From the IMG/VR virus record IMGVR_UViG_2837229570_000001: a stretch of DNA of 64,000 nucleotides; one strand, given 5' to 3'. Source of the stretch: an uncultured virus (IMG/VR IMGVR_UViG_2837229570_000001). Taxonomy: Duplodnaviria > Heunggongvirae > Uroviricota > Caudoviricetes. Positions 5,296 through 62,871 of the stretch are shown here, piece after piece. The notes under the pieces are model-generated. The model was not told where the DNA came from. It saw only the letters and a program-made list of their open reading frames with translations, and did no database searches. Numbering within the stretch: position 1 is the stretch's first letter; each line of letters begins with the position of its first letter. A program made the position numbers and the translations under genes.

Positions 5296-6277
5296 GGGTC
5301 ATCCCTCCCATTTGGGGCCTGTAGTCCTCCTCATATTTGGCGGGATCGGCACCGGGGACATCCCAGCCACACATACTGCCCACTTCCATAGCCTGGCGCT
5401 GGATGGGGTTGACTCCCAGCTTTTCATTCATCTTATCCGCCAGCTCCACATTTTGCTCCTTGTCGCCGGTGTCCCAATCGGAGGGGTAGTAGCCGGACTC
5501 GCCCCGGCGGATACAGATGAGGTCACCGGTGGACTTGAGAGTCGAGAAGCACATCTCCGGCAGCCCCTCCGCCACTCTGGGCGCGAAGCGTTCTGCCTCG
5601 GTCTGGATGTCCCAATCATCCTCCACGCTCCACAGATGGACATACAGCTCATCGTCGCCGGCGCAGATCTCCCGCTGTTCGAAGCCCTCGCCCCAGCCAT
5701 CCGACGCCTGTCCGGAGATATACTCTTTCAGGGTGATCAGTTCCTCCGGGGTGAGGGTGCCAACCACGCGGCACTCGGCAACACCCCAGAGCTGGCCGTT
5801 CCGATCCTCAACGGTGAACACGACAGATTTGACCTTCTGGTTGACGCTGTCATCCTCGCCATACCAGTGCATGATGCCGCTCTCGGATTCTTCCGGCATC
5901 CGGTTGTTGATCAGAGCCCTGAGGATCTCGCCTTCATAGACCCGCAGCGACCTCCCGTCCAACTGAGTGCAGTCATCCTCCATCTCTCCATACTCGTTGC
6001 GGGTGTAGAGATCCGCTGTCAGGGGCATATACAGCTTCAGCGTGGTAGGCTCGGGCGGCAGCACAGAGAAGCTGTCCTCTCCTATGGTCAGCGCCAGGGT
6101 TCTGCCATTGTCCCACTTCATGTGGAACTGGCCGGCATCGTCGATGTAGTCCAGAGTCCCCGTGCTGCCCGGCTCCAGCGGGGCATAGGGGTCTTTCATC
6201 TCTCTGAGCTTGATCCTTGAGCCTGCGGGAAACTGTTCTCGGAGAAAGCTCAACCACTCTCTCGGAATTTCTCTCAT
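5288..6277 (-). CDS. DUF4314-domain protein
   Basis: [42 protein letters not shown]. Confidence 0.75.
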
Positions 6278-15432: not shown

Positions 15433-15702
15433 TCACAGCATGGCGATTGCCAGCTCGATATTGCTCAACGACTGCTGCACGCCTTGGATGGCGGGCGAGA
15501 GCATCATGTAGTATTCCTCGCGGGTATACTCCCTCTGCTCATAGACCCACTCCGTCACGGTGATGGCGGTGTCACCCTCGCCGCGTGTGGTCGTTTCCTG
15601 CCGGATGTTTTTCCGCTCATACACCGTGGTTTCGCTGCTGGTGGTGTCGATGGTGGCGGGTTCCTCCGCGCGGCTGTCGTGTACGGTCTTAAACTCGGTC
15701 AT
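15433..15702 (-). CDS. Tail-fibre chaperone-like small protein
   Basis: 89 aa, located between the RT and XkdX genes. Confidence 0.5.
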   Translation of the reverse strand: MTEFKTVHDSRAEEPATIDTTSSETTVYERKNIRQETTTRGEGDTAITVTEWVYEQREYTREEYYMMLSPAIQGVQQSLSNIELAIAML

Positions 15703-16829
15703 GTTGCACTCATTCCTTTCCGCTTTTTCTTTTCTGCCGCTGCAATCCGTCGCTTGCAGTAGTGGATAGAAACCTTTGGCTTAATGTAGGTCAGATAATA
15801 CCCATACGCATCTGCGTGTTTGAACACGCCCGCCCGGCTTACCATGCTTGCGGAATCATGCCGGGTATATCGCTTCTTCTTGTGGATGTGATTGGCTTTC
15901 GCCCGTGTCCGCTTCAAGATGGATTTCCGAATGGTCACACGGTCGCGGTGTATCACAAATCCCAGCGCATTGACAGCGCGGCCTTTAGCCCTGCGCTTCC
16001 AGCGCCGTTCTTCTTCCACCGTCATGCCCTCCGGCTTTTTCTTCTTCTCGAAGCGGTACACCTGCCAATCGTCCTTGATGCGCAGATGCAATCTTTGCTG
16101 CAGGAATAGTTCGATCTGCTGCTCCATGCGGTGCAGCTCTTTCTTGTTCCTGTGGAAGATGAAAAGATTATCCATGTAGCGCAGATAGTGGTCGGGCTTT
16201 AGAACCTGCAACACGAAATTATCAAACTCGCTCATGTAGAGGTTTGCCAGCCACGGGGACGGATAAAAGCCTTTCGGCAGTCCCGGCCCAAACGCATCAA
16301 TGATGCGGAAAAGCACTTCTTTGAAACGCTTGTCCCGAATCAGCTTGTCCAGCTTGGCCTTTAACAGCTCCGTGTCGATGCTGTCATAGAACTTCCGCAC
16401 ATCGCCCTCGAATACATAAAAGCGTTTGTCCCCGTACTCGTTCCGCCACCGGGTCATAACCTTTACCGCGCCATGCGTCCCGCGCTGCGGCAGGGAGCCA
16501 TAAGCGTATCGGTATAGCCTCGGTATGATGATAGGCCGGAGCTGCCGCACGACCATGTGATGCACGATCTGTTCATCATCAAAGCGCGGCTTCACGATCT
16601 CGCGTTCCTTTTTGTGGCTGCCCTCCTGCAGCTTTTGCCTTTCGTGATGGGGCGGATACCATTCCCCGCGCTCGATCTTCTGGCATATCCGTTCAGCCAC
16701 TTCCTCCTTGTGCTCCAAAATGTGTTGCACGGATGGTCTGTCTTTCTTGTGCTGCGCCGCTTCTTCGATGGATGCAGCCGCCTCTTGGCGTTCCATCATC
16801 ATAGCGAACAGCCCATTGAAACTTTTCAA
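15699..16829 (-). CDS. DGR reverse transcriptase
   Basis: K.REI..P, YAYGSLPQRGTH, GDVRKFYDSI, GLPKGFYPSPWLANLY and LRYMDN motifs. Likely TTG start at 16829. Adjacent to TR. Confidence 0.9.
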   Translation of the reverse strand: MKSFNGLFAMMMERQEAAASIEEAAQHKKDRPSVQHILEHKEEVAERICQKIERGEWYPPHHERQKLQEGSHKKEREIVKPRFDDEQIVHHMVVRQLRPIIIPRLYRYAYGSLPQRGTHGAVKVMTRWRNEYGDKRFYVFEGDVRKFYDSIDTELLKAKLDKLIRDKRFKEVLFRIIDAFGPGLPKGFYPSPWLANLYMSEFDNFVLQVLKPDHYLRYMDNLFIFHRNKKELHRMEQQIELFLQQRLHLRIKDDWQVYRFEKKKKPEGMTVEEERRWKRRAKGRAVNALGFVIHRDRVTIRKSILKRTRAKANHIHKKKRYTRHDSASMVSRAGVFKHADAYGYYLTYIKPKVSIHYCKRRIAAAEKKKRKGMSAT

Positions 16830-16979
16830 GAGAGTTTTCCCTTTCTTATCCCCTCCGCGACGATGGGTGCCCATGCACTTACTGGCCGCGCCTCTTGACA
16901 GGTTAATTTTCAGAACTGTGCTGCGGAAATATGTTCACATTGTTGGGATAGCGACTATCCCGTAATGAAAGGGGCAAGG

Positions 16980-17087
16980 AAAGCGACGCGCCGATGTTCC
17001 ACCTCGCATTGCCAGACACATTGTTCACATTCAGGTAGCGCCCGCATTTCGAGCCGTTGTCGCAGTTGCCGCCGACAATCGGCACGG
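16980..17087 (-). repeat. DGR template repeat (TR)
   Basis: 108-nt ungapped match to 17213-17320. All 15 mismatches are at TR adenines; AAY-rich. Confidence 0.95.
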
Positions 17088-17147
17088 CAGGGTAGGAGCT
17101 GGACAAGCACGGTTTTCGTGAACATATTCCCTTATCATTCGGTTTTT

Positions 17148-17184
17148 ATGGGCGTTCCGCCCATGCGGGGGATGGCTCCCCCGC
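17148..17184 (-). promoter_or_regulatory. DGR homing hairpins downstream of VR
   Basis: GCGGGGGA-N4-TCCCCCGC (17165-17184) abutting ATGGGCG-N3-CGCCCAT (17148-17164). Confidence 0.75.
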
Positions 17185-17192
17185 TCCCCCTA

Positions 17193-18671
17193 TTAAGAGG
17201 GATTTTGTAAGAAAAGCGACGCGCCGATGTACCACCCCGCAGCGCCAGACACAGCGCCCACAGCCAGGTAGCGCCCGCAGTTCGAGCCGTCGGCGCAGGC
17301 GCCGCCGACAATCGGCACGGACACGATGGTCGGGTTGTAATAATGGAAATCACAATCGTAGGTGGTATCGCTGCCGGTCAGGTCGGTAGGGAACAAGCCC
17401 TGCTCCGTCTGCTGGGCGTTTTTCACCCAGCCGCCGCCCGTCGCCGTGGCGTTGATGCCCTTACGGATAGCTTCGTACCCTGCGCCGGTCAGGTTGTAGC
17501 CGCCGTCCTCCGGGGTCATTTTCGCCTTGTAGGTGCCGTTGTCATAGATCAGGCCCACGATTCTGTCCCAGCGGTCGCCCCAGAAGTTTTCCATGTGGAA
17601 TACCTTGACGCTGTGCGTGGTATCAGAATAGCCGAAGAACTGCCCGCTGGTATTCAGCGCGCCGGTGGTCAGCAGGTCAGCAGCGGAGCTGCCGCCGGTG
17701 GTATGCCCCTGCCCGAAAACAGCCTGAATGTTGGTGCTTTTGCCCAGCAGCACCAGCAGATCGTGAATGAGGTTCCAGAACGCCCATGTTTCGATTGTCC
17801 ATGCCGAGCCGTTGGCCTGCGCCGCCGTCACTTCCTGCGTGGCGTTCAGGCTGTTCACGGGAGCCTGCCCCGAAAGGGAGCGCAGCTTCGTGTCGATCTT
17901 GCTGCCCTCGAACATCGCGCCGTAGGCAAACGGCGTAATGCTGCCGTCCGGGCGGGTGTGGGCGTAAGCATGGTAGCTCTCGTCATACTGGCTCTCGCAG
18001 AAGATCACATAGCGATAGCCGTTCTCATGGTATCGCTTCACCCATACCAGCGGGATAGCCGACATGGCGTTACCAGCAAACGCGGTGTTTGCAACATCAC
18101 TGTCCGCACCCGTGACCGCCCGTTTGGCGTAATTGTTCGGGTCAAGCTGATATGCCACGCTGCCGTCGTTGTTGACCATGCAGGGGAAGTTGTCGCGCAC
18201 GACCCAGAAATCCGCCCAGCTTCCATAGCTGAACGCGCCGGTGGAAAAATTCATCCCCGCCGGGGTCATGCCCACCGCGTCGAAAAGATATTCCACGCGG
18301 GAACTCGGATTGCTCTCGCTCTCTTTCACGCGGTAGCCGTACCGCTTCGGGCGCTGGCCGCGCAGCTCGGAGAGGATGGTATCGGCCTTGCTGCTGATGT
18401 TGTTCGCCGTGTTCTGCACATTGTCCACCTTTCCGCTGGTGGTCTCCACGGTGGTTTTCACGCTTGCGACTTTGGTATCGGTGCCCTCCACGGTGGTTTT
18501 CACGCTGGCGACCTTGTTGCCGGTGTCCTCCACTGTGGTTTTCACGCTGCCGACTTTCGCGCCGGTGTCCTCCACGGTGGTTTTCACGCTTACAACTTTG
18601 GCGTTGGTGTTCTCCACGGTGGATTTCACGCTATCCAGCGTTGCCTTATCTGCGACATAGGTTTTGCTCAT
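17193..18671 (-). CDS. DGR target: tail-fibre/receptor-binding protein with a C-type-lectin (Mtd-like) C-terminus
   Basis: Follows the tail-fibre collar gene; MENFWGDRW motif; ends in the VR. Confidence 0.85.
   Translation of the reverse strand: MSKTYVADKATLDSVKSTVENTNAKVVSVKTTVEDTGAKVGSVKTTVEDTGNKVASVKTTVEGTDTKVASVKTTVETTSGKVDNVQNTANNISSKADTILSELRGQRPKRYGYRVKESESNPSSRVEYLFDAVGMTPAGMNFSTGAFSYGSWADFWVVRDNFPCMVNNDGSVAYQLDPNNYAKRAVTGADSDVANTAFAGNAMSAIPLVWVKRYHENGYRYVIFCESQYDESYHAYAHTRPDGSITPFAYGAMFEGSKIDTKLRSLSGQAPVNSLNATQEVTAAQANGSAWTIETWAFWNLIHDLLVLLGKSTNIQAVFGQGHTTGGSSAADLLTTGALNTSGQFFGYSDTTHSVKVFHMENFWGDRWDRIVGLIYDNGTYKAKMTPEDGGYNLTGAGYEAIRKGINATATGGGWVKNAQQTEQGLFPTDLTGSDTTYDCDFHYYNPTIVSVPIVGGACADGSNCGRYLAVGAVSGAAGWYIGASLFLQNPS
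17213..17320 (-). repeat. DGR variable repeat (VR) at the 3' end of the target gene
   Basis: Encodes VPIVGGACADGSNCGRYLAVGAVSGAAGWYIGASL, versus TR VPIVGGNCDNGSKCGRYLNVNNVSGNARWNIGASL. Confidence 0.95.
18423..18632 (-). repeat. Five 42-bp (14-aa) tandem repeats, SVKTTVExTxxKVx
   Basis: CTCCAC recurs at 18444, 18486, 18528, 18570 and 18612. Confidence 0.85.
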
Positions 18672-39109: not shown

Positions 39110-39224
39110 GGCCTTTCTCCTTTACGCAGAACGGAAAGAGGCACAGGTATTTCCGATCATCCACTTTCCGCCCCCAGACGCATCCCTTGCACTTGCACTT
39201 GTCTTTCTTCTCATTCTTCGCCAT
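39084..39224 (-). CDS. Small Cys-rich hypothetical protein (not in the ORF track)
   Basis: MAKNEKKDKCKCKGCVWG..CLFPFC; fills the gap between the terminase genes. Confidence 0.4.
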   Translation of the reverse strand: MAKNEKKDKCKCKGCVWGRKVDDRKYLCLFPFCVKEKGHAKPEQHR

Positions 39225-39693
39225 CTCCGTCACCGTCCCTTGCGGCAAAAGCCACGCGGTAATCGCTCAATTCCTCCAACGCCTCGTCGATAGCCTGTTT
39301 CAGCTCGTCAAAAATGGCGGTTTGGTTTCCGCCCATGCTGGCAAGCGTGGGGGAGAGCTTGGCGGGCAGCGCAAGGAAGCGCCCACGGATATTCAAAAAC
39401 ACGGTTTTCAATCCGGCTTCAATGTCCTGCGTGCGGTGCAGCTCGCCCATCCGCAGCTTGTTTTCCATCTCCGCCGCCTCGCGTTTGGCGCGGGTCAGCC
39501 CCGCCCGCTCGTCGTTGAGATTGATCTTCCCGCTGCCATTGCGCAGGAAAGTAATGTATTTCGTCACCGTCGCCTGCAGGTCGTAAAGCCCCGGCTGCTT
39601 TTCGGAGATCACGCCCTCGTCCCGGAGCTGCCGCACCCGGCGCTCGGTCAAACCCAGCCATGCCGCCACGACCTTACTTGTGTATAGCTTCAT
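39211..39693 (-). CDS. Terminase small subunit (Nu1-like)
   Basis: A.WLGLT.RRVRQL..EG.I HTH; ERA.L.RAKRE.AE. Confidence 0.85.
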   Translation of the reverse strand: MKLYTSKVVAAWLGLTERRVRQLRDEGVISEKQPGLYDLQATVTKYITFLRNGSGKINLNDERAGLTRAKREAAEMENKLRMGELHRTQDIEAGLKTVFLNIRGRFLALPAKLSPTLASMGGNQTAIFDELKQAIDEALEELSDYRVAFAARDGDGDGEE

Positions 39694-40460
39694 TCCGCGT
39701 CAACCTCCACGCCCTCGTCCGTTTCATCCTCCGGGCCTCCCACATCGAACGCGCCGGTGGCCCTCATGCGCATAATGTCGAGGCGTTCCCGCTCCAACGC
39801 CATGCGCTTTTCGCTCTCTTCCAGCGCACGCAGGCTGTCGGCAATCTTGGTAATGCGCCCCTGCACCTTGTAAAGCGCCTCCTGCAGTTTCATGCTTCTT
39901 GCAAAGGCGCTGTCCTTGGTATACATGCCCATGTTCTGATTTGCGCCGTCCTGCTTCTTATCGCCGCGCCCGCCGGGCACGCGCATATCAAGCAGGCTGC
40001 TGATGTGCAGGGTGTCCTCCGGCTCCGCCTCATACTGGGCGATCTTCTCCAATATGCGGTGCTCCCGCACCTTGGCGATTTTCAACTCATGTTCCAGTGC
40101 TTCCTTGCTCCCGGTGGGCGTAAGCTGTACGATCTCCCTCTCCGAATCGGTGAGCATATCAAAAAAGATGGTGCTGTAAGCTCCATCCTTTTCCGCGTTC
40201 TTATTCCCCAGCGGCGCGCCCTCATGGCTGCCCGCCGCGTTTTTATGACCGGCGCTGTTCTTGTTGCCCGGCTGCCCGCCCCGCTTTTTCTTCGGTAGGT
40301 CGGCATCCCATTTGTCAGCCGCTTTCCAATTCCGCAAGGTCTGATAGGTCACGCCCAGCGCATCGGCCAGCTCGCGCAGGTTCACTTTCTCGCCCCGCGC
40401 CTTTCGGGCGATGTAATCAGCCTTGGCGGTGTCGCGCTTCTCGCTCCGCTTCGGCATCAT
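39690..40460 (-). CDS. Terminase-small-subunit-related HTH protein
   Basis: LRELA..LGV..TLRNWK..DKW, GGQPGNKN and GNKNAEK motifs. Confidence 0.75.
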   Translation of the reverse strand: MMPKRSEKRDTAKADYIARKARGEKVNLRELADALGVTYQTLRNWKAADKWDADLPKKKRGGQPGNKNSAGHKNAAGSHEGAPLGNKNAEKDGAYSTIFFDMLTDSEREIVQLTPTGSKEALEHELKIAKVREHRILEKIAQYEAEPEDTLHISSLLDMRVPGGRGDKKQDGANQNMGMYTKDSAFARSMKLQEALYKVQGRITKIADSLRALEESEKRMALERERLDIMRMRATGAFDVGGPEDETDEGVEVDAE

Positions 40461-41199
40461 CACACCCCCAAAATAGACGGCGCACCCCACTTGGCCTACC
40501 TGAATACCCCGCGTAGGGACGCAAGGCTTCGGCCAAAACAGGGCGCACCAATAACAAAGCCCGCAGCGTTTTAAGCTGTGGGCCTGTTCTTCACGCTATG
40601 AATATATCATGGAAAACCTGTCAAAGTTGCCAACTCTCAAAAATTTTTCTTGCCCTCCCGCCGCCGCGTCACTTTTTACTTGACCGCCTCCCGGCGCAAG
40701 CGCCCTCAAAACACCGTAAGCCCTTGCGGCTGCTGCATTTCTTTACTTGCCTGCAATTTGCCGCCCCCAGCAAAATGGTTTTCGATGTTTTGTCGATCTC
40801 ACCATTTCGTTGACCTCGCCAAAATGGCGAAGCGCCGCGCCCGCTGGTTCCGCTTCGGTGCCCTCATGCCCCCGGTGGTGCCCATTGATTTGCCCCTCCC
40901 GCGTTTTTTGAACCCCCTCCTATTTTCCGCCGCCCCGCCGGGGAAGCCCTAAAAAAATGTTCACACCTACAAAACTTTTGCGCTTCTGAACCCGTAAGGC
41001 ATCGCGCGGGCGCGCGCAGTACCTACGCGCGTGCGCAGGTATAAAATCGCGCGCGTTTATATATCGCGTGGGCGTTTGAAAGTCGCGGGCGGGTGCGGCG
41101 GGCGGTCATTGCTTCGGCGGTGTGCCGGTGGTGGGCTGCTGCTGGTGCTGCTGGTGCTGGTGTTTGTGCCGGTGCTGGCGGTTGTGCCGGTGGTGCTGC

Positions 41200-41468
41200 T
41201 GGTGCCGGTGGTGATCGTCGGCGCGGCTGCCGGTGGTGAGGCTGCCGGGCGGGGCTGGTGATCTGCTGGCTGCCGGTGGTGCCGGTGATCGTCGGCGCGG
41301 CTGCCGTTGGTGAGGCCGTCGGGCGGGGCTGGTGATCCGCTGGCTGCCGGTGGTGCCGGTGATCGTCGGCGCGGCTGCCGTTGGTGAGGCCGTCGGGCGG
41401 GGCTGGTGATCCGCTGGCTGCCGGTGGTGCCGGTGATCGTCGGCGCGGCTGCCGGTGGTGAGGCCGTC
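41200..41468. repeat. Non-coding 74-bp GC-rich tandem repeat (~3.5 copies)
   Basis: GATCGTCGGCGCGGCTGCC at 41213, 41287, 41361 and 41435. Confidence 0.9.
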
Positions 41469-41675
41469 TGGCGGGGCCGCCAGTGTCGCCGGGGAAGTAT
41501 TTACCGCGCGCGGTATCGTCTCCCGAAAGGCTATATAATACGCCCCCTATACCCCCCAGCACAGCGTTTTAACAGAAATTCACCACGGGAAAAGCAACGC
41601 CCCAGCGGAGCCGCCGAAAAATTTTTCCCCCTACGGGGGAACATCCCCGCCCCGAAAAAAATTTCAAAAAAACGC

Positions 41676-41735
41676 TTGACATTTACACGGCACCGTGTTA
41701 CATTCATGGCACAGCAAGCGACACGGCACCGTGTC
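41676..41735 (+). promoter_or_regulatory. Strong sigma-A promoter with two ACACGGCACCGTGT operators
   Basis: A-rich UP element, TTGACA-17-TACATT with extended TG. Palindromes at 41685-41698 and 41720-41735. Confidence 0.8.
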
Positions 41736-41771
41736 AAACGAAAAACGAAAAATCATCAGGAGGTTTTCACC

Positions 41772-42185
41772 ATGACGAACAACGAGATTATTTTTGAGAC
41801 TGTCCGCAGCAGCTTCACCCCCGCCCAGCTCGCCGATCTGGTCAACGCGACTTTCACCGCTGACCAGCTCAACGCCCGCCGCGCTGGCGTAAAGATCACC
41901 GTCGCCGAGGGCAGCGACGAAACCCCGGAAAGCGTGTTTAACGCCATGCTGGCCGCCGAGACTTTCCACACTTTCGCCGAGTGGAAGCGCATGGGGTACA
42001 GCGTGAAAAAGGGACAGCACGCCGCGCTTGTGTGCAATCTCTGGAAGTACACCGACAAGCCCGGCAAGGCCGCCCGCGAGGCCGCCGCCGCTGCTGGCGA
42101 GGATGCCCCGGAAAGCGACCCGCATTTTTACATGGCAAAGGCGCATCTTTTCCACGCCTTGCAGGTGGATAAGATCAGCAAGTGA
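41772..42185 (+). CDS. ArdC-like N-terminal (ssDNA-binding) domain protein
   Basis: HTFAEWKRMGYSVKKGQHA....LWK..LF...QV; AGGAGG RBS. Confidence 0.7.
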   Translation: MTNNEIIFETVRSSFTPAQLADLVNATFTADQLNARRAGVKITVAEGSDETPESVFNAMLAAETFHTFAEWKRMGYSVKKGQHAALVCNLWKYTDKPGKAAREAAAAAGEDAPESDPHFYMAKAHLFHALQVDKISK

Positions 42186-42195
42186 CCCCAGCGAC

Positions 42196-42242
42196 GCGGA
42201 CACTTTAGCAGGGCTGCACCGCACAAAGCAACCCCGCCCCAG
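42196..42242 (+). ncRNA. Motif A copy 1 (unassigned structured element, candidate ribozyme)
   Basis: Three intergenic copies with a compensatory change. Confidence 0.6.
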
Positions 42243-42286
42243 CCCATCGGGCATGAATCAAAATCAAACTTTGGAGGTTTTCAATT

Positions 42287-43216
42287 ATGGCAAAGCAAAA
42301 TTATTATGGCAGCTTCAACCCCAGCGCCGCCGCAAAGGCTCTGAAAATGGCCGACCGCTATTTCTGCCAGATCACCGAGGACGGCACAATTTACGCCGGT
42401 TCCGGCTATGTGCTTTTCAAGCTGACCCCCCACGACTACGCCGCCATTGTTCAGCCCGTCGCCTGCTGCGAGGCTGGCAACTGGACGATTGACCGCAACG
42501 GCAAGAGCGAAAGCAACATTGACGCGGCGCGCATCTTCTCCGAGGCCGTCAAGACCGCACAGAACGCCGCCGATCTGCAGTCCTGCCCGCTGGTTATCAA
42601 CTGCAAGAAAGACAAAAACCCCGCCGCCGCCTACTACAACGCCGAGGCCGATTTTGTAGCCCTTTACAATCCCGCATATCTCGCCGCTTTCCCCGGCGCG
42701 GCCATCCGCGCAAGCTCCGCTTGCAGCCCCGCGATCATGTATAACGGCGGGGAGGCCGTCGGGCTGGTAATGCCTATCCGCGCCGAACCCAAAGCCGCCC
42801 GCGCCGTTAAGGCATACTTTACCGAGGCCGACGACGACAACGACAACAACGCCGAGGCCGAGAAGCTGCGCGGCCAGTTGGCCGCCCGGAACGCCGAGCT
42901 GCTGGAAGCCCGCGACAAGATCAAAGCCCTGCGCGGTGAGATCAACGACCTGCAAGCGGAGGTTTGCGAGCTGTCCACCGTCAGCGCCGAGGCCGTGCCC
43001 GCCGCCGACAACAAGCCGGAACCCAAAACCGCCGCCGAGATCATCGCGGCGCGCTGGGCAGAGGTTGACGGCCTGACCGCAACTATCAAGGGCGCGCAGA
43101 CCGCCGCGCCGGTGGTGTGGCTTGCCGGTGACACAAAACCCCATGCAAAAGCCATCGAGGCCGACGGCGGCAAGTGGAGCGCCAAAAAGAACGCCTATTA
43201 TTTCCGCGTCGCCTGA
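42287..43216 (+). CDS. Hypothetical multidomain protein
   Basis: 309 aa; GLVMP.R, coiled coil, WL.GDTKPH..G.KWS.KK.A.Y. Confidence 0.7.
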   Translation: MAKQNYYGSFNPSAAAKALKMADRYFCQITEDGTIYAGSGYVLFKLTPHDYAAIVQPVACCEAGNWTIDRNGKSESNIDAARIFSEAVKTAQNAADLQSCPLVINCKKDKNPAAAYYNAEADFVALYNPAYLAAFPGAAIRASSACSPAIMYNGGEAVGLVMPIRAEPKAARAVKAYFTEADDDNDNNAEAEKLRGQLAARNAELLEARDKIKALRGEINDLQAEVCELSTVSAEAVPAADNKPEPKTAAEIIAARWAEVDGLTATIKGAQTAAPVVWLAGDTKPHAKAIEADGGKWSAKKNAYYFRVA

Positions 43217-43220
43217 CACA

Positions 43221-43293
43221 ACCCGCAAGGCCGACGGCATCCGCCGCCGCTGGTGCAAGCCCAGCCGCCCCACCGGGGCGGGCGCTCATGGGT
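43221..43293 (+). ncRNA. Twister-sister self-cleaving ribozyme, copy 1
   Basis: ACCCGCAAGGCCGACGGCATCCGCCGCCGCTGGTGCAAGCCCAGCC-hairpin-GGGCGCTCATGGGT matches, from memory, the four-way-junction twister-sister ribozyme. Confidence 0.85.
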
Positions 43294-43329
43294 CACAATC
43301 CAAACCAAAAAAACAGGAGGTAAAACACT

Positions 43330-43929
43330 ATGATGCTTGAAGAATTTGAAAGCCGTACCGGCTTTTATCCCACCCGCGACCTTTACAGCCGAATTGAAGC
43401 GGCTTACATGGAAAGCGGACTTGACAAAGACAGCTTTTGCGCCGCGTACAAAGAAAACCGCGACGGCATAGCGGAGGCAATCGCACGGGATGCCGCTTTT
43501 GATGAAATCAAGGCCGCCACCCAGCGAGAAAGCGAAATCAAGAAGCTGCAAGAGCAGGTCGCCCAGCTTACAAAACAGCTTGATCGGGAACTCGAATGGA
43601 AGCCCTACGAACTGTCGCAGAATGTGCCGCAAGCAGATTATGCAAAGCTTGCCGCCGGTGCCGAAAGCGGGCTATGCGCTCACTACATGACCGACGAGGA
43701 AGCAATCAAATGGATTTGTGACGAGTTTGATTTTGACCCGGCAAAGATCACGATCATTCACGAAGTCCCGGAATACGAAATCAACCGTCACAACCAGCTC
43801 CGCAAAACTGGGAAAATGTACGACTGCCGCCCGGTTTACTGTGCTACCGATTATCACTACATCCGCTTCAACACAAAGCGCTGGTTCTATGAGGTCTGGA
43901 ACGGCCAGCTCCGCCCGTTCTACGCATAA
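43330..43929 (+). CDS. Hypothetical protein
   Basis: 199 aa; MMLEEFE.RTG..Y..IE..YM....DKD.FC; AGGAGG RBS. Confidence 0.7.
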   Translation: MMLEEFESRTGFYPTRDLYSRIEAAYMESGLDKDSFCAAYKENRDGIAEAIARDAAFDEIKAATQRESEIKKLQEQVAQLTKQLDRELEWKPYELSQNVPQADYAKLAAGAESGLCAHYMTDEEAIKWICDEFDFDPAKITIIHEVPEYEINRHNQLRKTGKMYDCRPVYCATDYHYIRFNTKRWFYEVWNGQLRPFYA

Positions 43930-43935
43930 CCCACA

Positions 43936-44009
43936 ACCCGCAAGGCCGACGGCATCCGCCGCCGCTGGTGCAAGCCCAGCCGCCCCCGCCGGGGCGGGCG
44001 CTCATGGGT
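43936..44009 (+). ncRNA. Twister-sister self-cleaving ribozyme, copy 2
   Basis: Identical to copy 1 except for the loop of the last hairpin. Confidence 0.85.
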
Positions 44010-44044
44010 CACAACCCAAAACCACAAAACAGGAGGTTTTCATC

Positions 44045-44488
44045 ATGGCAGCAACAACACGCCCCATCCCCGGCATCTTCTCCAAGGTTCCCGGCGGCTA
44101 CGCACAGCAGATCAACGAGCAGACAACGCTTTTTGTCCCGGATATGTGCGCCGCCAGTTTTAACCCCGACACCGGCGATCTTCGCGGCTACGCTCCCGAC
44201 TATGAAGCGCTGGAAGCTGCAAAGGCTCCCGCCGTCCACGCTGACAAACCCGGCGAATATTCCTATTGCTACGAAATGCAAAAGGCTCCAACGGGCTGCG
44301 ACTTCGCCGCCGATCTCTCCTATTACGGCAAGCACTACTTTCTCCGGCCACTCCGCGACGATCTCCCGCAGCTCCACGGGCGCGGCATCAGCTACGATGA
44401 AAAGCGTAACACCTATACGGTCACGCTCCGCGCCTATGAGAAGCTCAAAGAGCAATACCGCATCCGATACGAAACCTGCCTTGATTGA
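44045..44488 (+). CDS. Hypothetical protein
   Basis: 147 aa from MAATTRPIPG; AGGAGG RBS. Confidence 0.7.
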   Translation: MAATTRPIPGIFSKVPGGYAQQINEQTTLFVPDMCAASFNPDTGDLRGYAPDYEALEAAKAPAVHADKPGEYSYCYEMQKAPTGCDFAADLSYYGKHYFLRPLRDDLPQLHGRGISYDEKRNTYTVTLRAYEKLKEQYRIRYETCLD

Positions 44489-44495
44489 CCCCCAC

Positions 44496-44544
44496 CCGGA
44501 CACTTTCGCGGGGCTGCACCGGCACACAAAGCAACCCCACCCCA
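44496..44544 (+). ncRNA. Motif A copy 2
   Basis: CCGGACACTTTCGCGGGGCTGCACCGG..AAAGCAACCCC. Confidence 0.6.
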
Positions 44545-44589
44545 TAAGCAAAACCCAAAACCCAAAAATCCAAAACGGAGGTACACAAA

Positions 44590-45504
44590 ATGTCTGTTAC
44601 TTACTACCCGATCAACGAGGACACCGCCCGCAACGCGCATTACATGGTACACATGAGCGACTACAAGCCCGGCAGCGCCACGGCCGGCTACCGCGCCGCC
44701 GTGGACGAGGCCGCCGCGCTGGTGGAGGCGCAGAAAGCCAAGGTCAGCCCCTACTATCACGACAAGCTGGACGGCCTGCTTGACCGCTACGCCCGCCGCC
44801 TTGCCGAGTGGACGAACGACTACAACCGCAATCAGGCCAGCTATCCCAGCCAGTTTATTTCCGGGGCGGGCGGCTTCAATATGCGCAAGCACAACAAGCA
44901 GATGGCGCGGGAAGATACCCTCTGGAAAGAGTACGACGAGATCAAAGCCCTGCTGCACAAGATGGAAAGTGTCGGCACCGGCCCGGTCGATCTGGCAGAC
45001 CCCCACGCCCGTGAAATCCTCACCGACCAGCTCCAAAAGCTCCAAGCCCGGCTTGACCGCAACAAGGCTATGAACGCCTATTATCGCAAGCACAAATCCT
45101 TTGCCGGTTTCCCGGAGCTGACCGACGAGGCCGCCGCCCGGCTCGATGCACAATTTGCCGAAACCCGGCAGCAGTGCCCGTGGATTGACAAGCCGTGCCC
45201 CGACTATGAATTGACCAGCCTGCGCGGCAAGATTAAGCGCGTGGAAGAACGCATTGCGGAGCTGGACAAACGCGCCCAGCAGGCGGAGCAGCCCGCCGAC
45301 AACACAGCTTTCCCCGGCGGCGAGATCGTCCGCAATCTGGAAGCCGACCGGCTGCAGATCATCTTCGACGAAAAGCCCGACGAGGACACCCGCGCCGCCC
45401 TGAAACAAAACGGCTTCCGCTGGTCGCCCCGGTACGGCGCATGGCAGCGCCAGTTGACCCAAAACGCAGAATCCGCCGCCCGCCGCGCTCTTGGCCTGAA
45501 ATAA
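44590..45504 (+). CDS. DUF3560-like/polyvalent-type protein
   Basis: PS..ISGAG.F..RK; N.EADRLQIIFD.KPD..R..LK.NGFRWSP..AWQRQLT. Confidence 0.65.
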   Translation: MSVTYYPINEDTARNAHYMVHMSDYKPGSATAGYRAAVDEAAALVEAQKAKVSPYYHDKLDGLLDRYARRLAEWTNDYNRNQASYPSQFISGAGGFNMRKHNKQMAREDTLWKEYDEIKALLHKMESVGTGPVDLADPHAREILTDQLQKLQARLDRNKAMNAYYRKHKSFAGFPELTDEAAARLDAQFAETRQQCPWIDKPCPDYELTSLRGKIKRVEERIAELDKRAQQAEQPADNTAFPGGEIVRNLEADRLQIIFDEKPDEDTRAALKQNGFRWSPRYGAWQRQLTQNAESAARRALGLK

Positions 45505-45548
45505 TCAAAAGCCCGCCCCGGAGGTAACGAGGGCAGAAAGGACATAAA

Positions 45549-45743
45549 ATGTGTCTTACACAGCAGAACGCCGCCCAGTTTGTCGGCAAGTCCCTGTTTG
45601 GCGGGCACTTCCATTATTGGCCTCTGCGTGTCATTCAACACAAAAACGGCCTGTATTACTACATTGACCGTTTCGGCGTTATGATGAAATGCCCAGACCA
45701 AAACGACCTTTTCAACGCGGTTTATTTCAGCCGAGCCGAATAA
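45549..45743 (+). CDS. Small hypothetical protein
   Basis: 64 aa; AAAGGA RBS. Confidence 0.55.
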   Translation: MCLTQQNAAQFVGKSLFGGHFHYWPLRVIQHKNGLYYYIDRFGVMMKCPDQNDLFNAVYFSRAE

Positions 45744-45781
45744 CCGCCGCAACCATTTTCGTGACCTCACGAAAAAGATAC

Positions 45782-45828
45782 CCGGACACTTTCGCAGGGC
45801 TGCACCGGCCAAAGCAACCCCGCCCCAG
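45782..45828 (+). ncRNA. Motif A copy 3
   Basis: CCGGACACTTTCGCAGGGCTGCACCGGCCAAAGCAACCCCGCCCC. Confidence 0.6.
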
Positions 45829-45871
45829 AAGCAAAAACCCAAGAACATAACACAAAACGGAGGTACAAACC

Positions 45872-46108
45872 ATGTTCACCGTTCCCGCAGGCACCCCGCT
45901 CTACACAAAAGAGCATGACGGCACCGTACAGCGCTGGTATCTGTTCGGCTGGTACGGCGATACCTTTTCCGTCGCGCCTCGCAAAAACGCCAAGCTGCGC
46001 GACTACAAGCGCTATTATTCCGCCGCCGACATCGGCCAGACTATCTACAAGACCCGCAAAGAGGCCGCCGCCGCGCCCTGTCCCGCCACAGTCTACCAGC
46101 CCCGCTAA
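45872..46108 (+). CDS. Small hypothetical protein
   Basis: 78 aa; GGAGG RBS. Confidence 0.6.
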   Translation: MFTVPAGTPLYTKEHDGTVQRWYLFGWYGDTFSVAPRKNAKLRDYKRYYSAADIGQTIYKTRKEAAAAPCPATVYQPR

Positions 46109-46116
46109 ATCTATCA

Positions 46117-46145
46117 TAGACAGTAACACGACATCGTGTTATAAT
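46117..46145 (+). promoter_or_regulatory. Sigma-A promoter with an AACACGACATCGTGTT operator in its spacer
   Basis: TAGACA-17-TATAAT; palindrome at 46125-46140. Confidence 0.8.
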
Positions 46146-46167
46146 TCATGCACAACGGAGGGATTGC

Positions 46168-46431
46168 ATGGAACACAAATCGCAAGAAGTTTTTCCCGCT
46201 TTTCGCCTCGTCGCCCAGTTCGCCGACGGCCAGCGGCTTCTTTTTGACGGCCTGACGGAGCAGCAAGCCCGGCAGGCCATGGAGGCAGCGCAAACCCAGC
46301 ACGGCGACATTACATGGTGGGACGGCGTGACCGATCAACATTACGAAAATGGCCGCTATTTCGCAACACTGCCCCCGCCGCCAGAGATCACCATGTACGA
46401 TCTGACGGATTATCCCAACAAGGAGGAATGA
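46168..46431 (+). CDS. Small hypothetical protein
   Basis: 87 aa; GGAGG RBS. Confidence 0.6.
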   Translation: MEHKSQEVFPAFRLVAQFADGQRLLFDGLTEQQARQAMEAAQTQHGDITWWDGVTDQHYENGRYFATLPPPPEITMYDLTDYPNKEE

Positions 46432-46434
46432 CCC

Positions 46435-46653
46435 ATGCCCATAGCCGCATCCAAACGCCGCAACAACGATATTTACAACGCCAAGTGTGACCGCATCAGC
46501 GCCCGCCCCTTAAAGCCCGTCGGCAACGCCATCCGCGCCGCCGCGCAGGCCGCCGGGCAGAGCGTGCAGGCGTATGTGCTGCAAGCCTGTGAAGAACGCA
46601 TGACCCGTGAAGGCCGCCCCTTGGAACTGGACAAACCGCCCGATGAAACATGA
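46435..46653 (+). CDS. Ribbon-helix-helix (Arc-like) regulator
   Basis: YNAK.DRIS.R......IRAAA..AGQSV.AYV..A..ERM. Confidence 0.7.
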   Translation: MPIAASKRRNNDIYNAKCDRISARPLKPVGNAIRAAAQAAGQSVQAYVLQACEERMTREGRPLELDKPPDET

Positions 46654-46668
46654 CCCCCGCCGCGCGCA

Positions 46669-46712
46669 AAAACACCCCCGGTAGGCTCTCGACCAGCCCG
46701 CCGGGGGTGTTC
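46669..46712. terminator. Terminator between convergent operons
   Basis: AACACCCCCGG..GGCT / AGCC..CCGGGGGTGTT. Confidence 0.7.
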
Positions 46713-53959: not shown

Positions 53960-54288
53960 GCCGTGCCCCTTTCTTGCTTGGTGTTTCTCCTTTTGCCGTC
54001 GCCGCAGAAATAGTTCTCGTCAAACATTTTCCAATCCGAACTTTCGTGAGGATGGCAAAACTCGCCGTCAGACAGGACGAAGTGCGAGTGAATGTCACAC
54101 CACCCTAATTCTTTGTGGTAATGCTCGCACTCGCGGCAACGCACAACTGGCACCCAGTCTTTCACATTTTCTGCCTGTTGCTTTAGCTGCCTTTCCATCG
54201 TTTCCTCGTTGTGTTCAGCGCACCGAAGATGTGCCAACAATTCCGCTTTTGGTAAGCGCAGCAATGTGGAATCGGCCAGCCTTTTCAT
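53956..54288 (-). CDS. Hypothetical phage protein
   Basis: PVVRC.EC.H..FCGDG. Confidence 0.55.
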   Translation of the reverse strand: MKRLADSTLLRLPKAELLAHLRCAEHNEETMERQLKQQAENVKDWVPVVRCRECEHYHKELGWCDIHSHFVLSDGEFCHPHESSDWKMFDENYFCGDGKRRNTKQERGTA

Positions 54289-55103
54289 TTCCGGCTCCTT
54301 TCCGCATAGAACATATACTGCTGGATAACACCGGCAGTCTGCGGGTACAGCTCCACCGGGAATTTCCCGGCATACTCTCTGGCGATGATCTTCTTTATCC
54401 ATGTGTCCACCGGGAACGCCTCTTTGCGGCCAAGGCCGAACAGGAGGATGCAGTTGCTCACCTTTTCCCCGATGCCGAAGATGCTTTTCAGGTAGGTGTG
54501 CGCCGCCTCGGTGGGCATCTGTTGGATGGCGGCAAGGTCAATTTTTCCGTAGCACACATTTTGCGCGAGGCGGGCGATATACTTGTCCCGGTAGCCCAGC
54601 CCCAGCCCTTGCAGCGCTTGCAGATTGACCAGCGCCGCCGGAGTGGGAAATGTATGGTAGGTGCCATACACGCCCTCCCGCGCCTCTCCCAGCTTTTTGC
54701 ACATGGCCGCAATCGTCTTTTTGATGCGGGGGATGTTGTTGTTTTGGCTGATGATAAACGACACCATGATTTCCCACAGATCGGCGTTGAGGATACGCAG
54801 CCCCGCCGCGCTCTCCGCCGCCGCGCGGAGGTAATGATCTTCCGCCGGAATGGAACGAATGATCGCGCCGTAGTCCGTCCCGGCATCCAGATAATGCCGC
54901 CACCTATTTAATTTGTTATCTTCGCGCCACAGTTCAACGCCACCGTCAACTTGTCCAAGCAACGCTTGATCTGCACCGTCGCACACGATATATGCACCGC
55001 TGGGGAAAGACGGGTGATCGGTCGCTTTCCAACGAAAGCACTGCCCGCTCTCGGCGATCTGCCGGAGATTGCAGTGGTTTGAAATCAGCAAGCATTTCTC
55101 CAT
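54285..55103 (-). CDS. 8-oxoguanine DNA glycosylase (OGG1-like, HhH-GPD)
   Basis: SGQCFRW, SFIISQNNNIPRI, GIGEKVSNC and FPVDTWI motifs. Confidence 0.88.
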   Translation of the reverse strand: MEKCLLISNHCNLRQIAESGQCFRWKATDHPSFPSGAYIVCDGADQALLGQVDGGVELWREDNKLNRWRHYLDAGTDYGAIIRSIPAEDHYLRAAAESAAGLRILNADLWEIMVSFIISQNNNIPRIKKTIAAMCKKLGEAREGVYGTYHTFPTPAALVNLQALQGLGLGYRDKYIARLAQNVCYGKIDLAAIQQMPTEAAHTYLKSIFGIGEKVSNCILLFGLGRKEAFPVDTWIKKIIAREYAGKFPVELYPQTAGVIQQYMFYAERSRK

Positions 55104-60944: not shown

Positions 60945-62537
60945 ATGGCAAAGAAAAAAGAAAGCCCCGCCGCCGGTGAGCGCCTTGCGGCGTACTACCG
61001 ATACAGCGGGGGAGGCGGGCAGACCGAACAGAGCATAGAGGGCCAGCGCCGGGATTGCGAGGCATGGGCAAAAGCCCACGGCATGACGATCTGCCGGGAG
61101 TATATCGACCGGCATATCTCCGGCAAGACGGATAACCGCGCGCAGTTTCAGCGCATGATGGAGGACAGCGACAAGCACGCCTTTGACATCCTGATCTGCT
61201 GGAAAACTGACCGTCTCGCCCGGAACCGCTACGACAGCGCCATTTATAAAAGCCGCCTGCGGAAAAACGGGATAAAGATCGTCTATGCCGCCGAAAGCTC
61301 CGTGGATGGCCCGGAGGGCATCATTCTGGAGGGCTTGATGGAAAGCCTCGCGGAGTATTATAGCGCAGAGCTGTCTCAAAAGCTCCGGCGCGGCATCCGT
61401 GAAAGCGCCTTGAAATGTCATTCTCTCGGCGGCTACCATGCCCTCGGCCTGACCTCCAACAAGAACCATGAATTTGTGATCGACGAAACGCAGGCCCCGA
61501 CTGTGCGCTATATCTTCCAACAGTACGCCGCCGGGCAGTCCTCCGCCGCCATCGTCGCCGATCTCAACGCCAAGGGCAAGCGCACGGCCACCGGCGGGGT
61601 GTTCAACAAAAACAGCATCATGCGCATTGTCACCAATGAGCAGTATATCGGCACCTATATCAGCAAGGCCCACAATGTCCGGGTGGAGAACGCCATCCCC
61701 GCCATTATCGACCGGGAGCTATGGGACAAGGTGCAGGCAATGGTGCAGTATAACCGGGCAGGGAGAGCGCCGCACACCAAGCGCGCCAATTATATGCTTT
61801 CCGGCAAGCTGTTTTGTAAGCTCTGCGACAGCTCTATGAAAGGTATCTCCGGCACCGGCAAGCACGGCGAGAAGCACTATTACTACGCCTGTTCAAAGCA
61901 CACCATCCACCAGTGCGAAAAACACAATATCGAAAAGAGCTATCTTGAAAACCTGATTGCCTCCGCCACCGCTGATTATATCCTTGCCCCCGGCAAGCTG
62001 GAACAGATCGCCGACCGGGTGATTGCCGTCCAGCTCGCCGACCAGCACCGGGAAAATCCCGAAAAAGAAATGTTGGAAGCGGAACTGTCCGAAAATGTCC
62101 GAAAGCAAGATAACATCATGCGCGCCATTGAGGACGGAACCGGCAGCGCCCGGCTCTCTGCCCGGCTGCGTGATCTCGAAGAACAGGAAAGCATACTGCG
62201 CGCCCAACTGGCCGCCATTGATGAACCCGCCGCCGCGCCGGTCTATGACCGTGACCAGCTCATTTTTATGCTGTCCCAATTCCAGCGCGGCCCGGACGAA
62301 CAGGACGAGGAATACAAGCAGCGGCTCATAGATACTTTTGTCCATGCCGTCTATCTCACTGACGAAATAGCCTTTGTGCAATTTAACATAACCGACCCCG
62401 AAAAAGCAGAAAGCACCACGCTCGAAAGCGTGATGCTTGATCTGCTCCACGGTAAACCCATCGCGGAAAACCCCAGTAATTCGGGGCTTTCCGCCGGGTT
62501 CGACCGGGTTTCACTTGGTGGAGGCGGGGGGAGTTGA
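60945..62537 (+). CDS. Large serine recombinase (integrase)
   Basis: AYYRYS..QTEQSIEGQ, DRLARN, LSGKLFC..C and YYYAC motifs; the stop codon lies within tmRNA. Confidence 0.93.
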   Translation: MAKKKESPAAGERLAAYYRYSGGGGQTEQSIEGQRRDCEAWAKAHGMTICREYIDRHISGKTDNRAQFQRMMEDSDKHAFDILICWKTDRLARNRYDSAIYKSRLRKNGIKIVYAAESSVDGPEGIILEGLMESLAEYYSAELSQKLRRGIRESALKCHSLGGYHALGLTSNKNHEFVIDETQAPTVRYIFQQYAAGQSSAAIVADLNAKGKRTATGGVFNKNSIMRIVTNEQYIGTYISKAHNVRVENAIPAIIDRELWDKVQAMVQYNRAGRAPHTKRANYMLSGKLFCKLCDSSMKGISGTGKHGEKHYYYACSKHTIHQCEKHNIEKSYLENLIASATADYILAPGKLEQIADRVIAVQLADQHRENPEKEMLEAELSENVRKQDNIMRAIEDGTGSARLSARLRDLEEQESILRAQLAAIDEPAAAPVYDRDQLIFMLSQFQRGPDEQDEEYKQRLIDTFVHAVYLTDEIAFVQFNITDPEKAESTTLESVMLDLLHGKPIAENPSNSGLSAGFDRVSLGGGGGS

Positions 62538-62871
62538 ACCCCCGTCCGAAAACGTTTGAACGGGAACTTCTCCGGGCGCAGACGGTTTTTTAAGATTCCC
62601 TTCCCCAAGCGCGAGCCGTCACGCTCAGAGGGTCGGTAGCTTCATGATGCATGGTGCGCTCAAAGCTTTGCGCACGCACGGTCCCCACTCAAATGACGCC
62701 CCAATCCGGCTCGTGGGCCTTCCGGTTGGAACGGTCGCGGGCTAGTTAGGCCGCGACGAGTTCGCAGTTATCGTTGTTCTTTAATTTATAAAGAGTGCCC
62801 GTTTTTAGAAGGTCAGGCGCCTTCGCCCGCTATTCCCGCCTCCGCGTCCCCGTCGAAACCGGTACGCCCCC
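62516..62871 (-). ncRNA. ssrA: tmRNA; tag peptide (A)KNNDNCELVAA
   Basis: 5' GGGGGCG pairs with CGCCUCC-ACCA including G3.U; GGUUUCGAC 5' motif; T-arm GGGGGUUCAACUCCCC; smpB nearby. Confidence 0.95.

What the first reader, a model, noticed from the sequence alone, without database searches (positions are those of the whole stretch)
41676..46712. Ribozyme-punctuated, autoregulated accessory operon next to the packaging region (anti-defence island architecture)
Seen: nine plus-strand genes run opposite to the phage backbone. The order is P1-ArdC-like|motif A|309aa|TS|199aa|TS|147aa|motif A|DUF3560-like|small hairpin|64aa|motif A|78aa|P2-87aa-RHH-terminator. Nearly every junction has the same layout: structured element, A/C linker, GGAGG, ATG. 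Established: ArdC-like domains are anti-restriction associated, and a strong promoter with a terminal small repressor is how acr-aca operons are organised. Inference: an immediately expressed host-takeover or anti-defence cassette array whose mRNA is cut into single-gene units. The repeated elements could also act as recombination handles for swapping cassettes.
Basis: partly seen in the sequence, partly recalled or inferred. Interest (0 to 1): 0.8.

Follow-up and report, generated by a model that had tools for sequence, protein, structure and literature searches.

The report
Self-repressed, RNA-punctuated phage entry operon
A gut-bacterial prophage carries a swappable block of small genes, probably switched on briefly when the phage enters a new cell, in which self-cutting RNAs and an unexplained knotted RNA (RAGATH-5) stand in for each other between genes, which gives a natural test of what such RNAs are for.

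Summary
Observation confirmed, with corrections. Nine plus-strand genes lie between a small-terminase gene and the late activator of a Toutatis-like myovirus prophage. Only 2 of 8 junctions hold true ribozymes (twister-sister). 'Motif A' is Rfam RAGATH-5, not known to cleave.

What I found:
(1) One palindromic operator sits twice at P1 and once at P2, and changes with the DNA-reading strand of the Arc-like RHH protein across six classes.
(2) Among 22 complete islands there are 17 gene orders. Twister-sister, hammerhead and RAGATH-5 swap at the same junctions, and one contig lacks gene 3 through a crossover between the two ribozymes.
(3) RAGATH-5 shows a pseudoknot plus two independently covarying base triples, so it is a sense-strand RNA fold.
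(4) P1 lies about 650 bp from a conserved cos-like site and points inward, so this arm is probably injected first.

Anti-defence function is only indirect: a weak ArdC-N hit, a beta-clamp-like fold, and ArdC, YodL and methylase cargo in relatives. No Acr or Aca match. The RNA runs could not show timing or cleavage. Ribozyme-flanked prophage genes (2011) and RHH-repressed ardC regulons (2018) are in print; I did not find the combination. New variant of a known kind.

The parts
40988..41024 (-). Bipartite cos-like packaging site (inferred), about 650 bp from P1
   Evidence: Same two-part motif at near-fixed spacing upstream of terS in 33 of 33 loci with enough sequence; lambda gpA-type terminase and lambda-family portal. 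Likeness to lambda cos is recalled. The pattern also has 4 other matches in the host genome.
41676..41704 (+). Promoter P1 (TTGACA-17-TACATT)
   Evidence: kept in relatives
41685..41698 (.). Operator O1, palindrome ACACG-N4-CGTGT in the P1 spacer
41721..41734 (.). Operator O2, 36 bp downstream of O1
41772..42185 (+). g1, 137 aa, ArdC-N-like ssDNA-binding domain without the MPTase domain
   Evidence: PF08401 E 3.4e-4, below cut-off; PHROG 7245 anti-restriction E 6e-5
42196..42248 (+). RAGATH-5 copy 1 (motif A): pseudoknot with two base triples
42287..43216 (+). g2, 309 aa: residues 12-166 resemble DnaN beta-clamp domains II-III, then a coiled coil and a small alpha/beta domain
   Evidence: pLDDT 85; Foldseek top hits DnaN, E 8e-3; VIA Z 6.5, rmsd 4.3, 133 aligned. 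Moderate evidence.
43218..43298 (+). Twister-sister ribozyme 1; predicted cut between C43287 and A43288
   Evidence: C-A step from PMC5660989
43330..43929 (+). g3, 199 aa, widespread family of unknown function; optional cassette
   Evidence: 497 representatives; no PDB match; skipped in contig X7-26
43933..44014 (+). Twister-sister ribozyme 2; predicted cut between C44003 and A44004
44045..44488 (+). g4, 147 aa, conserved, two small beta-rich domains, function unknown
   Evidence: best PDB Z 3.8; only uncharacterised viral matches among the significant rows
44496..44551 (+). RAGATH-5 copy 2
44590..45504 (+). g5, 304 aa, PHROG 19458 (labelled 'primase', untested); Atlas neighbours named DUF3560/LPD25
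45509..45541 (+). Motif B: small GCCC/GGGC hairpin, possibly a pseudoknot, directly before an AGAAAGG SD; no Rfam match
45549..45743 (+). g6, 64 aa, unknown
45756..45775 (+). Hairpin D
   Evidence: z -3.5; also in L041 and L059
45782..45834 (+). RAGATH-5 copy 3
45872..46108 (+). g7, 78 aa, unknown
46117..46145 (+). Promoter P2 (TAGACA-17-TATAAT) with operator O3 at 46126-46139 in its spacer
46168..46431 (+). g8, 87 aa, most conserved island gene, function unknown
46435..46653 (+). g9, 72 aa, Arc-like RHH protein; inferred repressor of P1 and P2
   Evidence: profile hits Arc, E 0.011-0.015, residues 20/22/24 aligning to Arc 9/11/13; strand covaries with operator
46671..46711 (+). Terminal hairpin, probable terminator

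Best explanation
This is the phage's establishment ('leading-region') operon. The phage packs from a cos-like site beside P1, so the island is probably the first DNA to enter a cell (inferred from lambda, recalled). With no repressor present, host sigma-A polymerase fires P1 and P2. The RHH protein g9 accumulates, binds the two P1 operators and the one P2 operator, and shuts the block down: a pulse on entry, near silence in the lysogen (inferred; about 0.85 for autoregulation, 0.7 for entry timing). Each cargo gene carries a folded RNA just behind its stop codon, then an unstructured A/C leader and a strong SD for the next gene. Twister-sister (or hammerhead in relatives) cuts the transcript, leaving the fold on the upstream gene's 3' end and a fresh leader on the next (about 0.9, family knowledge). 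RAGATH-5 fills the same slot as a compact triple-stabilised pseudoknot. Most likely it defines and protects message ends against exonucleases rather than cutting itself (about 0.4). This makes each gene's expression independent of its neighbours, so cassettes can be gained, lost and swapped by recombination across the look-alike junctions (variation shown; mechanism inferred). The cargo most likely counters host defences or redirects host DNA metabolism (about 0.55; indirect).
For: Operator: the exact palindrome occurs 3 times in the genome, all at P1/P2, and in 34 of 34 loci fetched by the RHH gene, with a variable centre. Six strand/operator classes change together. In FP_Toutatis and L060 the RHH gene is divergent from P1 and the operator copies cluster there. 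Two-operator cargo promoter plus one-operator repressor promoter is the logic shown for Reg576 (PMC6294495). Slots: in 70 sequences all 217 pattern hits lie on the island strand, none on the other. Four gene pairs are joined by different elements in near-identical phages. After g4 relatives: RAGATH-5 54, hammerhead-like 3, TS 3, none 1 of 61. Shuffling: 17 gene orders in 22 complete islands, with flanking genes about 97% identical among the 17-18 closest; 105 of 132 homology-block ends lie in junctions that make up 20% of bases; TS-TS crossover contig. RAGATH-5 fold. Position. Cargo in relatives: ArdC-N, MPTase, YodL, DUF4942 methylase, classes reported for early-acting elements (PMC5512222; PMC11541004).
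Against: No expression or cleavage data: the four runs are contigs that cover head genes as evenly as the island, so they probably contain DNA. No known anti-defence family matched above cut-off in the window; g1 is below cut-off and lacks MPTase. Only 6 of 74 cargo representatives pass a Pfam cut-off, and one of those is an HTH gene lying upstream of P1. Breakpoints are not enriched in the folded elements themselves (10 of 132 vs 5.5% of bases), and selection alone would favour intergenic breakpoints. Many genes have no element in front (g4 relatives: 60 of 62), so 'single-gene units' is not the rule. Several same-slot islands showed no element in my scan (e.g. L039, L044, L050). P2 is near-consensus, unlike Reg576's weak own promoter. 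RHH similarity is weak in E-value. The cos site and ejection order rest on analogy. Relatives are not independent samples.
Confidence: 0.6

Rival explanations
1. The RNA elements are timers that destroy rather than stabilise: cleavage exposes 5'-OH ends to host RNases (as with glmS), limiting toxic host-takeover genes to a short, graded pulse.
For: glmS cleavage lowers expression (PMC6765202). After a TS cut the downstream piece has only a ~42-nt weakly folded leader.
Against: Very strong SDs and A/C leaders suggest selection for high translation. A triple-stabilised pseudoknot in the same slot looks protective.
Confidence: 0.17
2. A lysogenic-conversion (moron) block: g9 holds expression at a steady low level in the lysogen and the cargo protects or benefits the host, e.g. 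by superinfection exclusion.
For: Opposite orientation to the lytic genes, own promoter and terminator, variable content.
Against: No PADLOC defence match beyond a coiled-coil artefact. Twin operators on the promoter imply tight shut-off. The recognisable cargo in relatives belongs to invasion-type classes.
Confidence: 0.13
3. The repeats are kept mainly as recombination handles (PeSL-like); RNA processing is incidental.
For: TS-TS crossover, truncated and chimeric elements in L047 and L059, junction-rich breakpoints, precedent PMC2839356.
Against: Unrelated sequences (TS, hammerhead, RAGATH-5) replace each other, which recombination does not need. Catalytic cores, compensatory pairs and base triples are conserved.
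Confidence: 0.1

Closest known systems
Clustered hammerhead ribozymes flanking single prophage genes (Perreault et al. 2011, PMC3088659; passages read)
   Same: Several ribozymes flank single, variable prophage genes; processing to single-gene mRNAs proposed; ardA among the flanked genes; cleavage shown in vitro.
   Different: Here twister-sister, hammerhead and non-cleaving RAGATH-5 interchange at one fixed locus, with a repressor/operator circuit and a cos-proximal position; none of this is in the passages read.
Reg576 establishment regulon of Bacillus plasmid p576 (PMC6294495; abstract and first part of discussion read)
   Same: RHH repressor controls an ardC-like gene and itself; two operators at cargo promoters, one at its own; zygotic-induction-like pulse.
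   Different: Conjugative plasmid, direct-repeat operator, several separate promoters; no Reg576 entry among the 9 PDB hits of the g9 profile. Here a phage with a palindromic operator and one long RNA-punctuated operon.
acr-aca operons (recalled; cited in PMC11541004)
   Same: Strong early promoter with inverted-repeat operators, small terminal repressor, variable small cargo.
   Different: Repressor is Arc-like RHH on its own promoter; no Acr or Aca family matched.
PeSL cassettes of T4-type phages (PMC2839356; abstract read)
   Same: Repeated intergenic regulatory units mediate gain and loss of accessory genes.
   Different: Each PeSL is a promoter plus terminator; here there are two promoters and the repeats are post-transcriptional RNA folds.
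Toutatisvirus (Faecalibacterium phage FP_Toutatis, MG711466)
   Same: Same slot between terS and the 'Q' gene; homologues of g5 and g8, an ArdC-N-like protein and an RHH gene; 7 RAGATH-5 copies, 6 above cut-off.
   Different: No twister-sister match; RHH gene divergent from P1; different operator. Papers read (PMC5883640; bioRxiv 2024.10.15.618418) contain no 'ribozyme', and the preprint describes another hotspot (tail-integrase, DGR).

Membership tests
Twister-sister ribozyme (RF02681) | Covariance-model score above the curated cut-off, full length, conserved core including the C-A step | tested here: met
   83.7 and 86.5 bits vs 34; C-A step
Twister-sister ribozyme (RF02681) | Self-cleavage of these copies | not testable with these tools
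   only contigs were available
RAGATH-5 (RF02685) | Score above cut-off and covarying hairpin | tested here: met
   64.1, 59.9, 54.3 vs 50; 0 of 500 shuffles reach the covariation score (relatedness caveat)
Self-cleaving ribozyme (for RAGATH-5) | Catalytic self-cleavage | not testable with these tools
   Rfam types it 'ribozyme'; PMC6765202 says further motifs of that screen did not cleave; that RAGATH-5 is one of them is recalled
Reg576-type establishment regulon | RHH repressor | tested here: met
   profile hits Arc, E 0.011-0.015; weak RHH Pfam hits
Reg576-type establishment regulon | Same operator at cargo promoter (two) and repressor promoter (one) | tested here: met
Reg576-type establishment regulon | On a conjugative plasmid, with dual direct-repeat operator | tested here: not met
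   prophage with head, tail and integrase genes; palindromic operator
Reg576-type establishment regulon | Transient derepression after entry | not testable with these tools
   one search gives no timing
acr-aca operon | A known Acr family in the cargo | tested here: inconclusive
   none in Pfam, PHROGs or NCBIfam; unknown Acrs would be missed
acr-aca operon | HTH Aca-family repressor | tested here: not met
   g9 is RHH-like with no Aca hit
ArdC anti-restriction proteins | ArdC-N domain | tested here: inconclusive
   21.3 bits vs cut-off 22.6
ArdC anti-restriction proteins | C-terminal zincin-like MPTase domain | tested here: not met
   137 aa, no PF18818 hit; present in L051's island
DnaN beta clamp | Three-domain ~370-aa subunit with sequence similarity | tested here: not met
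   about 155 residues matching domains II-III by fold only; no HMM hit
Integron-like cassette array | Dedicated recombinase and bottom-strand ssDNA hairpin sites | tested here: not met
   no recombinase among island ORFs; covariation fits sense-strand RNA triples and C.A/U.G wobble exchange
PeSL cassettes | Promoter plus terminator in each repeat | tested here: not met

The most novel reading that the evidence does not exclude
RAGATH-5 is an end-defining RNA device of a kind not described in bacteria or phages: a triple-helix pseudoknot that blocks exonucleases, or a conditional ribozyme that earlier assays missed. Together with twister-sister and hammerhead it turns the first-injected, self-repressing anti-defence arm of Toutatis-like phages into independently expressed, swappable cassettes. 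This would explain the long-noted clustering of bacterial ribozymes with these genes.
Probability: 0.33. Interest if true: 0.85.

Novelty: new variant of a known kind. Interest (0 to 1): 0.63.

Why it matters
A 2019 review states that the reason bacterial self-cleaving ribozymes sit beside certain genes is undetermined, and that motifs from the same screen which did not cleave have unknown function (PMC6765202). Here near-identical phages differ in which element joins the same two genes, which is a natural substitution experiment. One relative is a named prophage of F. prausnitzii. The structural model for RAGATH-5 gives exact positions to mutate. A fixed, operator-marked, cos-proximal locus with dozens of unknown cargo families is also a pool of candidate anti-defence genes for abundant gut phages.

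Tried and rejected
1. RAGATH-5 folding on the minus strand or as ssDNA. A.C mismatches outnumbered G.U in the first set, and all 98 copies fold lower on minus; but so do 36 of 36 TS controls. A wider set showed C.A/C-G/U.G exchange and parallel Y-R covariation. Rejected.
2. Stop-codon readthrough at the pseudoknot. Downstream genes are not kept in frame, and spacing from the stop varies.
3. Operator as the main prophage-repressor site. No copy elsewhere in the window at one mismatch.
4. g8 as a HicB-like or fused domain. No support.
5. Functions of g3 and g4. No informative match; this does not show a new fold.
6. Expression from public runs. Only contigs; no timing or ends. Small-share runs were not used.
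7. Motifs B, C and D. No Rfam match at E<=5 in 5 loci holding B and D; motif C was not clearly covered.
8. g2 vs g5 C-terminal likeness. Probability 7%.
9. Family-wide spread. RAGATH-5 was found in 1 of 150 other genomes searched.
10. Whether g2 forms a ring. Left open.
11. The 2015 discovery paper was not held; its figures and supplements may already show the RAGATH-5 pseudoknot and cleavage tests.
12. Earlier-finding look-ups returned nothing.


Full report
SETTING. The window lies in a 3.22-Mb genome and holds a prophage with lambda gpA-type terminase, lambda-family portal, baseplate genes, a reverse transcriptase beside a tail gene, and a serine integrase next to tmRNA. Named relatives are mostly Oscillospiraceae and other gut Clostridia. 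FP_Toutatis has the same layout. The finding is a plus-strand block between a terS-like gene and the late activator, both on minus.

OBSERVATION. The nine ORFs, two promoters and terminal hairpin are as described. Rfam identifies two twister-sister ribozymes and three RAGATH-5 motifs, the only copies of either family in the genome. So 2 of 8 junctions carry a proven ribozyme class. Rfam labels RAGATH-5 a ribozyme, but a review says further motifs of that screen did not cleave (PMC6765202, passages). That RAGATH-5 is one of them is my recall; the primary paper was not held.

REGULATION. The palindrome ACACG-N4-CGTGT occurs three times in the genome: in the P1 spacer, 36 bp further on, and in the P2 spacer. 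The count alone is unremarkable. However, it is kept with a variable centre in 34 of 34 loci fetched by the RHH gene and, at the island promoters, in 4 of 35 fetched by terS. More distant phages have other operators in the same twin arrangement. A profile of g9 aligns to P22 Arc (E 0.011-0.015), placing residues 20, 22 and 24 on Arc 9, 11 and 13, which I recall as the DNA-reading positions. These residues change with the operator in six classes: R/S/R, Y/S/R, Y/N/R, N/N/R, Q/N/K and R/T/W. S or T at position 22 goes with an outer A and N with an outer G. L548 had an RHH but no matching operator found, and L537 and L547 were truncated. In FP_Toutatis and L060 the RHH gene is divergent from P1 and the operator copies cluster there. 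This is strong comparative support for autorepression, not proof of binding. The two-plus-one operator logic is that of Reg576, an RHH repressor of ardC and other establishment genes that allows a pulse after transfer (PMC6294495, abstract and discussion part 1; PMC8708921 passages).

POSITION. A two-part motif at near-fixed spacing lies upstream of terS in 33 of 33 loci with enough sequence; in the window it is at 40988-41024, about 650 bp from P1. I read it as cos from the terminase type and a recalled likeness to lambda. If so, the island is the last-packaged arm and, by recalled analogy to lambda, the first ejected, with P1 reading inward. This parallels plasmid leading regions, which are rich in anti-defence genes and orphan methylases (PMC11541004, passages). 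It is inference.

MODULARITY. Of 70 sequences mapped (69 loci plus the window), 22 span P1 to g8. They show 17 gene orders and run from 1.0 to 4.5 kb, while flanking genes of the 17-18 closest are about 97% identical. My gene caller missed some small genes, including window g6, so a few orders may be artefacts. All 217 element hits (RAGATH-5 100, TS 48, hammerhead 12, B 39, C 15, D 3) are on the island strand; where flanks were missing, 'inside' could not be checked. Rfam confirms the types in 21 loci. Four gene pairs are joined by different elements in different phages. Elements travel with the upstream gene: behind g4 relatives 60 of 61 have one, in front only 2 of 62. g3 relatives elsewhere mostly lack them (2 of 78 in front, 1 of 80 behind by pattern; 7 of 20 have an Rfam ribozyme within 2.5 kb), though L567 repeats TS-g3-TS. 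Of 132 homology-block ends among 18 islands, 105 fall in junctions (20% of bases) but only 10 in the folds themselves; these ends are not independent, and selection alone favours intergenic breaks. One contig of run X7 joins 43272 to 43989, with 26 ambiguous letters inside the two TS copies and no depth over g3. This is one contig, and repeat collapse cannot be excluded.

RAGATH-5. In 98 distinct copies the hairpin and a 5' CGG/loop CCG pseudoknot covary (0 of 500 shuffles). The fourth pseudoknot pair is C-G 58, G-C 17, two other standard pairs and unpaired 21; three of its pairs were fixed by my search pattern. In 119 of 125 distinct cores (6 bulged rows dropped), loop position 5 covaries with stem purine 40 (T/A 42, C/G 73, 4 others; MI 0.74) and position 6 with purine 41 (T/A 72, C/G 42, 5 others; MI 0.77). 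The cross pairs have MI 0.01. Two independent, parallel pyrimidine-purine covariations are what consecutive major-groove triples (U.A-U, C.G-C) give, and their independence argues against mere descent. With the A-rich third loop this describes a compact H-type pseudoknot on the sense strand. 132 of 135 copies have a stop triplet within 25 nt upstream (any frame, so partly chance) and 117 an SD and start downstream. FP_Toutatis uses seven copies and no TS. Because it fills the ribozyme slot, I infer it defines or protects RNA ends; a conditional ribozyme remains possible.

CARGO. g1 is ArdC-N-like, below cut-off. The g2 N-terminal half resembles beta-clamp domains II-III, the top fold in two searches but at modest scores (E 8e-3; Z 6.5, rmsd 4.3); it could be a clamp mimic. 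g5 neighbours are named DUF3560/LPD25. g3, g4, g6, g7 and g8 are unexplained. Among 74 cargo representatives from relatives, Pfam gave ArdC-N, MPTase, YodL, DUF4942 with a methylase region, DUF5688, a DnaJ-like domain and an HTH; most gave nothing. ArdC-N, MPTase, YodL and LPD25 are polyvalent-protein domains proposed to act early in invasion (PMC5512222, passages). No Acr or Aca family matched. Anti-defence is therefore plausible but unshown.

RNA DATA. Seven RNA and five possible-RNA runs were listed, all as contigs. The four laid cover structural genes as well as the island and show no ends. They say nothing on timing.

COMPARISON AND NOVELTY. Clustered hammerheads flanking variable single prophage genes, including ardA, were described in 2011 with the same processing proposal (PMC3088659, passages). 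Repeat-mediated shuffling is known for PeSLs (PMC2839356, abstract). Other notes of this scan report similar punctuated operons, so the theme is common. Searches ('RAGATH-5': 0 papers), 57, 98 and 102 did not return a description of this locus, of the RHH-operator covariation, of RAGATH-5 triples or of its interchange with ribozymes. Subscription papers and the 2015 supplements were not visible.

VERDICT. Real, and a new variant of a known kind. Interest 0.63, mainly because it makes the function of RAGATH-5 and of prophage ribozyme clusters directly testable.

Noticed in passing
window 15699-18671 (-): Reverse transcriptase (PHROG 1423) next to a tail protein: probably a diversity-generating retroelement, as reported for Toutatisvirus.
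   Followed up: no
window 40481-40547 (-): Rfam DUF3800-VIII RNA directly 5' of the terS-like gene, also in L040, L041, L054 and L056; may belong to late-promoter control.
   Followed up: no
window 39211-40490 (-): Two tandem genes both match small-terminase families (PHROG 57 and 1889).
   Followed up: no
window 41195-41477: Three to four 74-nt tandem repeats between the cos-like site and P1; this stretch varies in length among relatives.
   Followed up: no
window 45509-45541; L003 9351-9394: Motifs B and C: small hairpins with possible pseudoknots directly before an AGAAAGG SD, 39 and 15 hits in relatives; motif B had no Rfam match.
   Followed up: partly
window 54285-55103 (-): Phage gene with OGG_N and HhH-GPD domains (8-oxoguanine glycosylase-like).
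   Followed up: no
window 60945-62871: Serine integrase abutting tmRNA; my short repeat search did not find the matching att copy.
   Followed up: partly
L054 3853-7776 (-): Island with seven twister-sister ribozymes, one at nearly every junction; a good construct for in vitro tests.
   Followed up: partly
L059 about 6045-6100 (-) and L047 about 3581-3664 (-): Chimeric RAGATH-5/TS element in L059 and a TS overlapping the upstream gene end in L047, probable recombination scars.
   Followed up: partly
L001-type phages upstream of P1 (cluster c17, also L046, L054): A conserved 45-47-aa ORF with its own promoter lies between the cos-like site and P1 in many relatives; I did not find it called in the window.
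   Followed up: no
G026:C61:8302-10764: Another cluster of four RAGATH-5 copies in a same-family genome.
   Followed up: no
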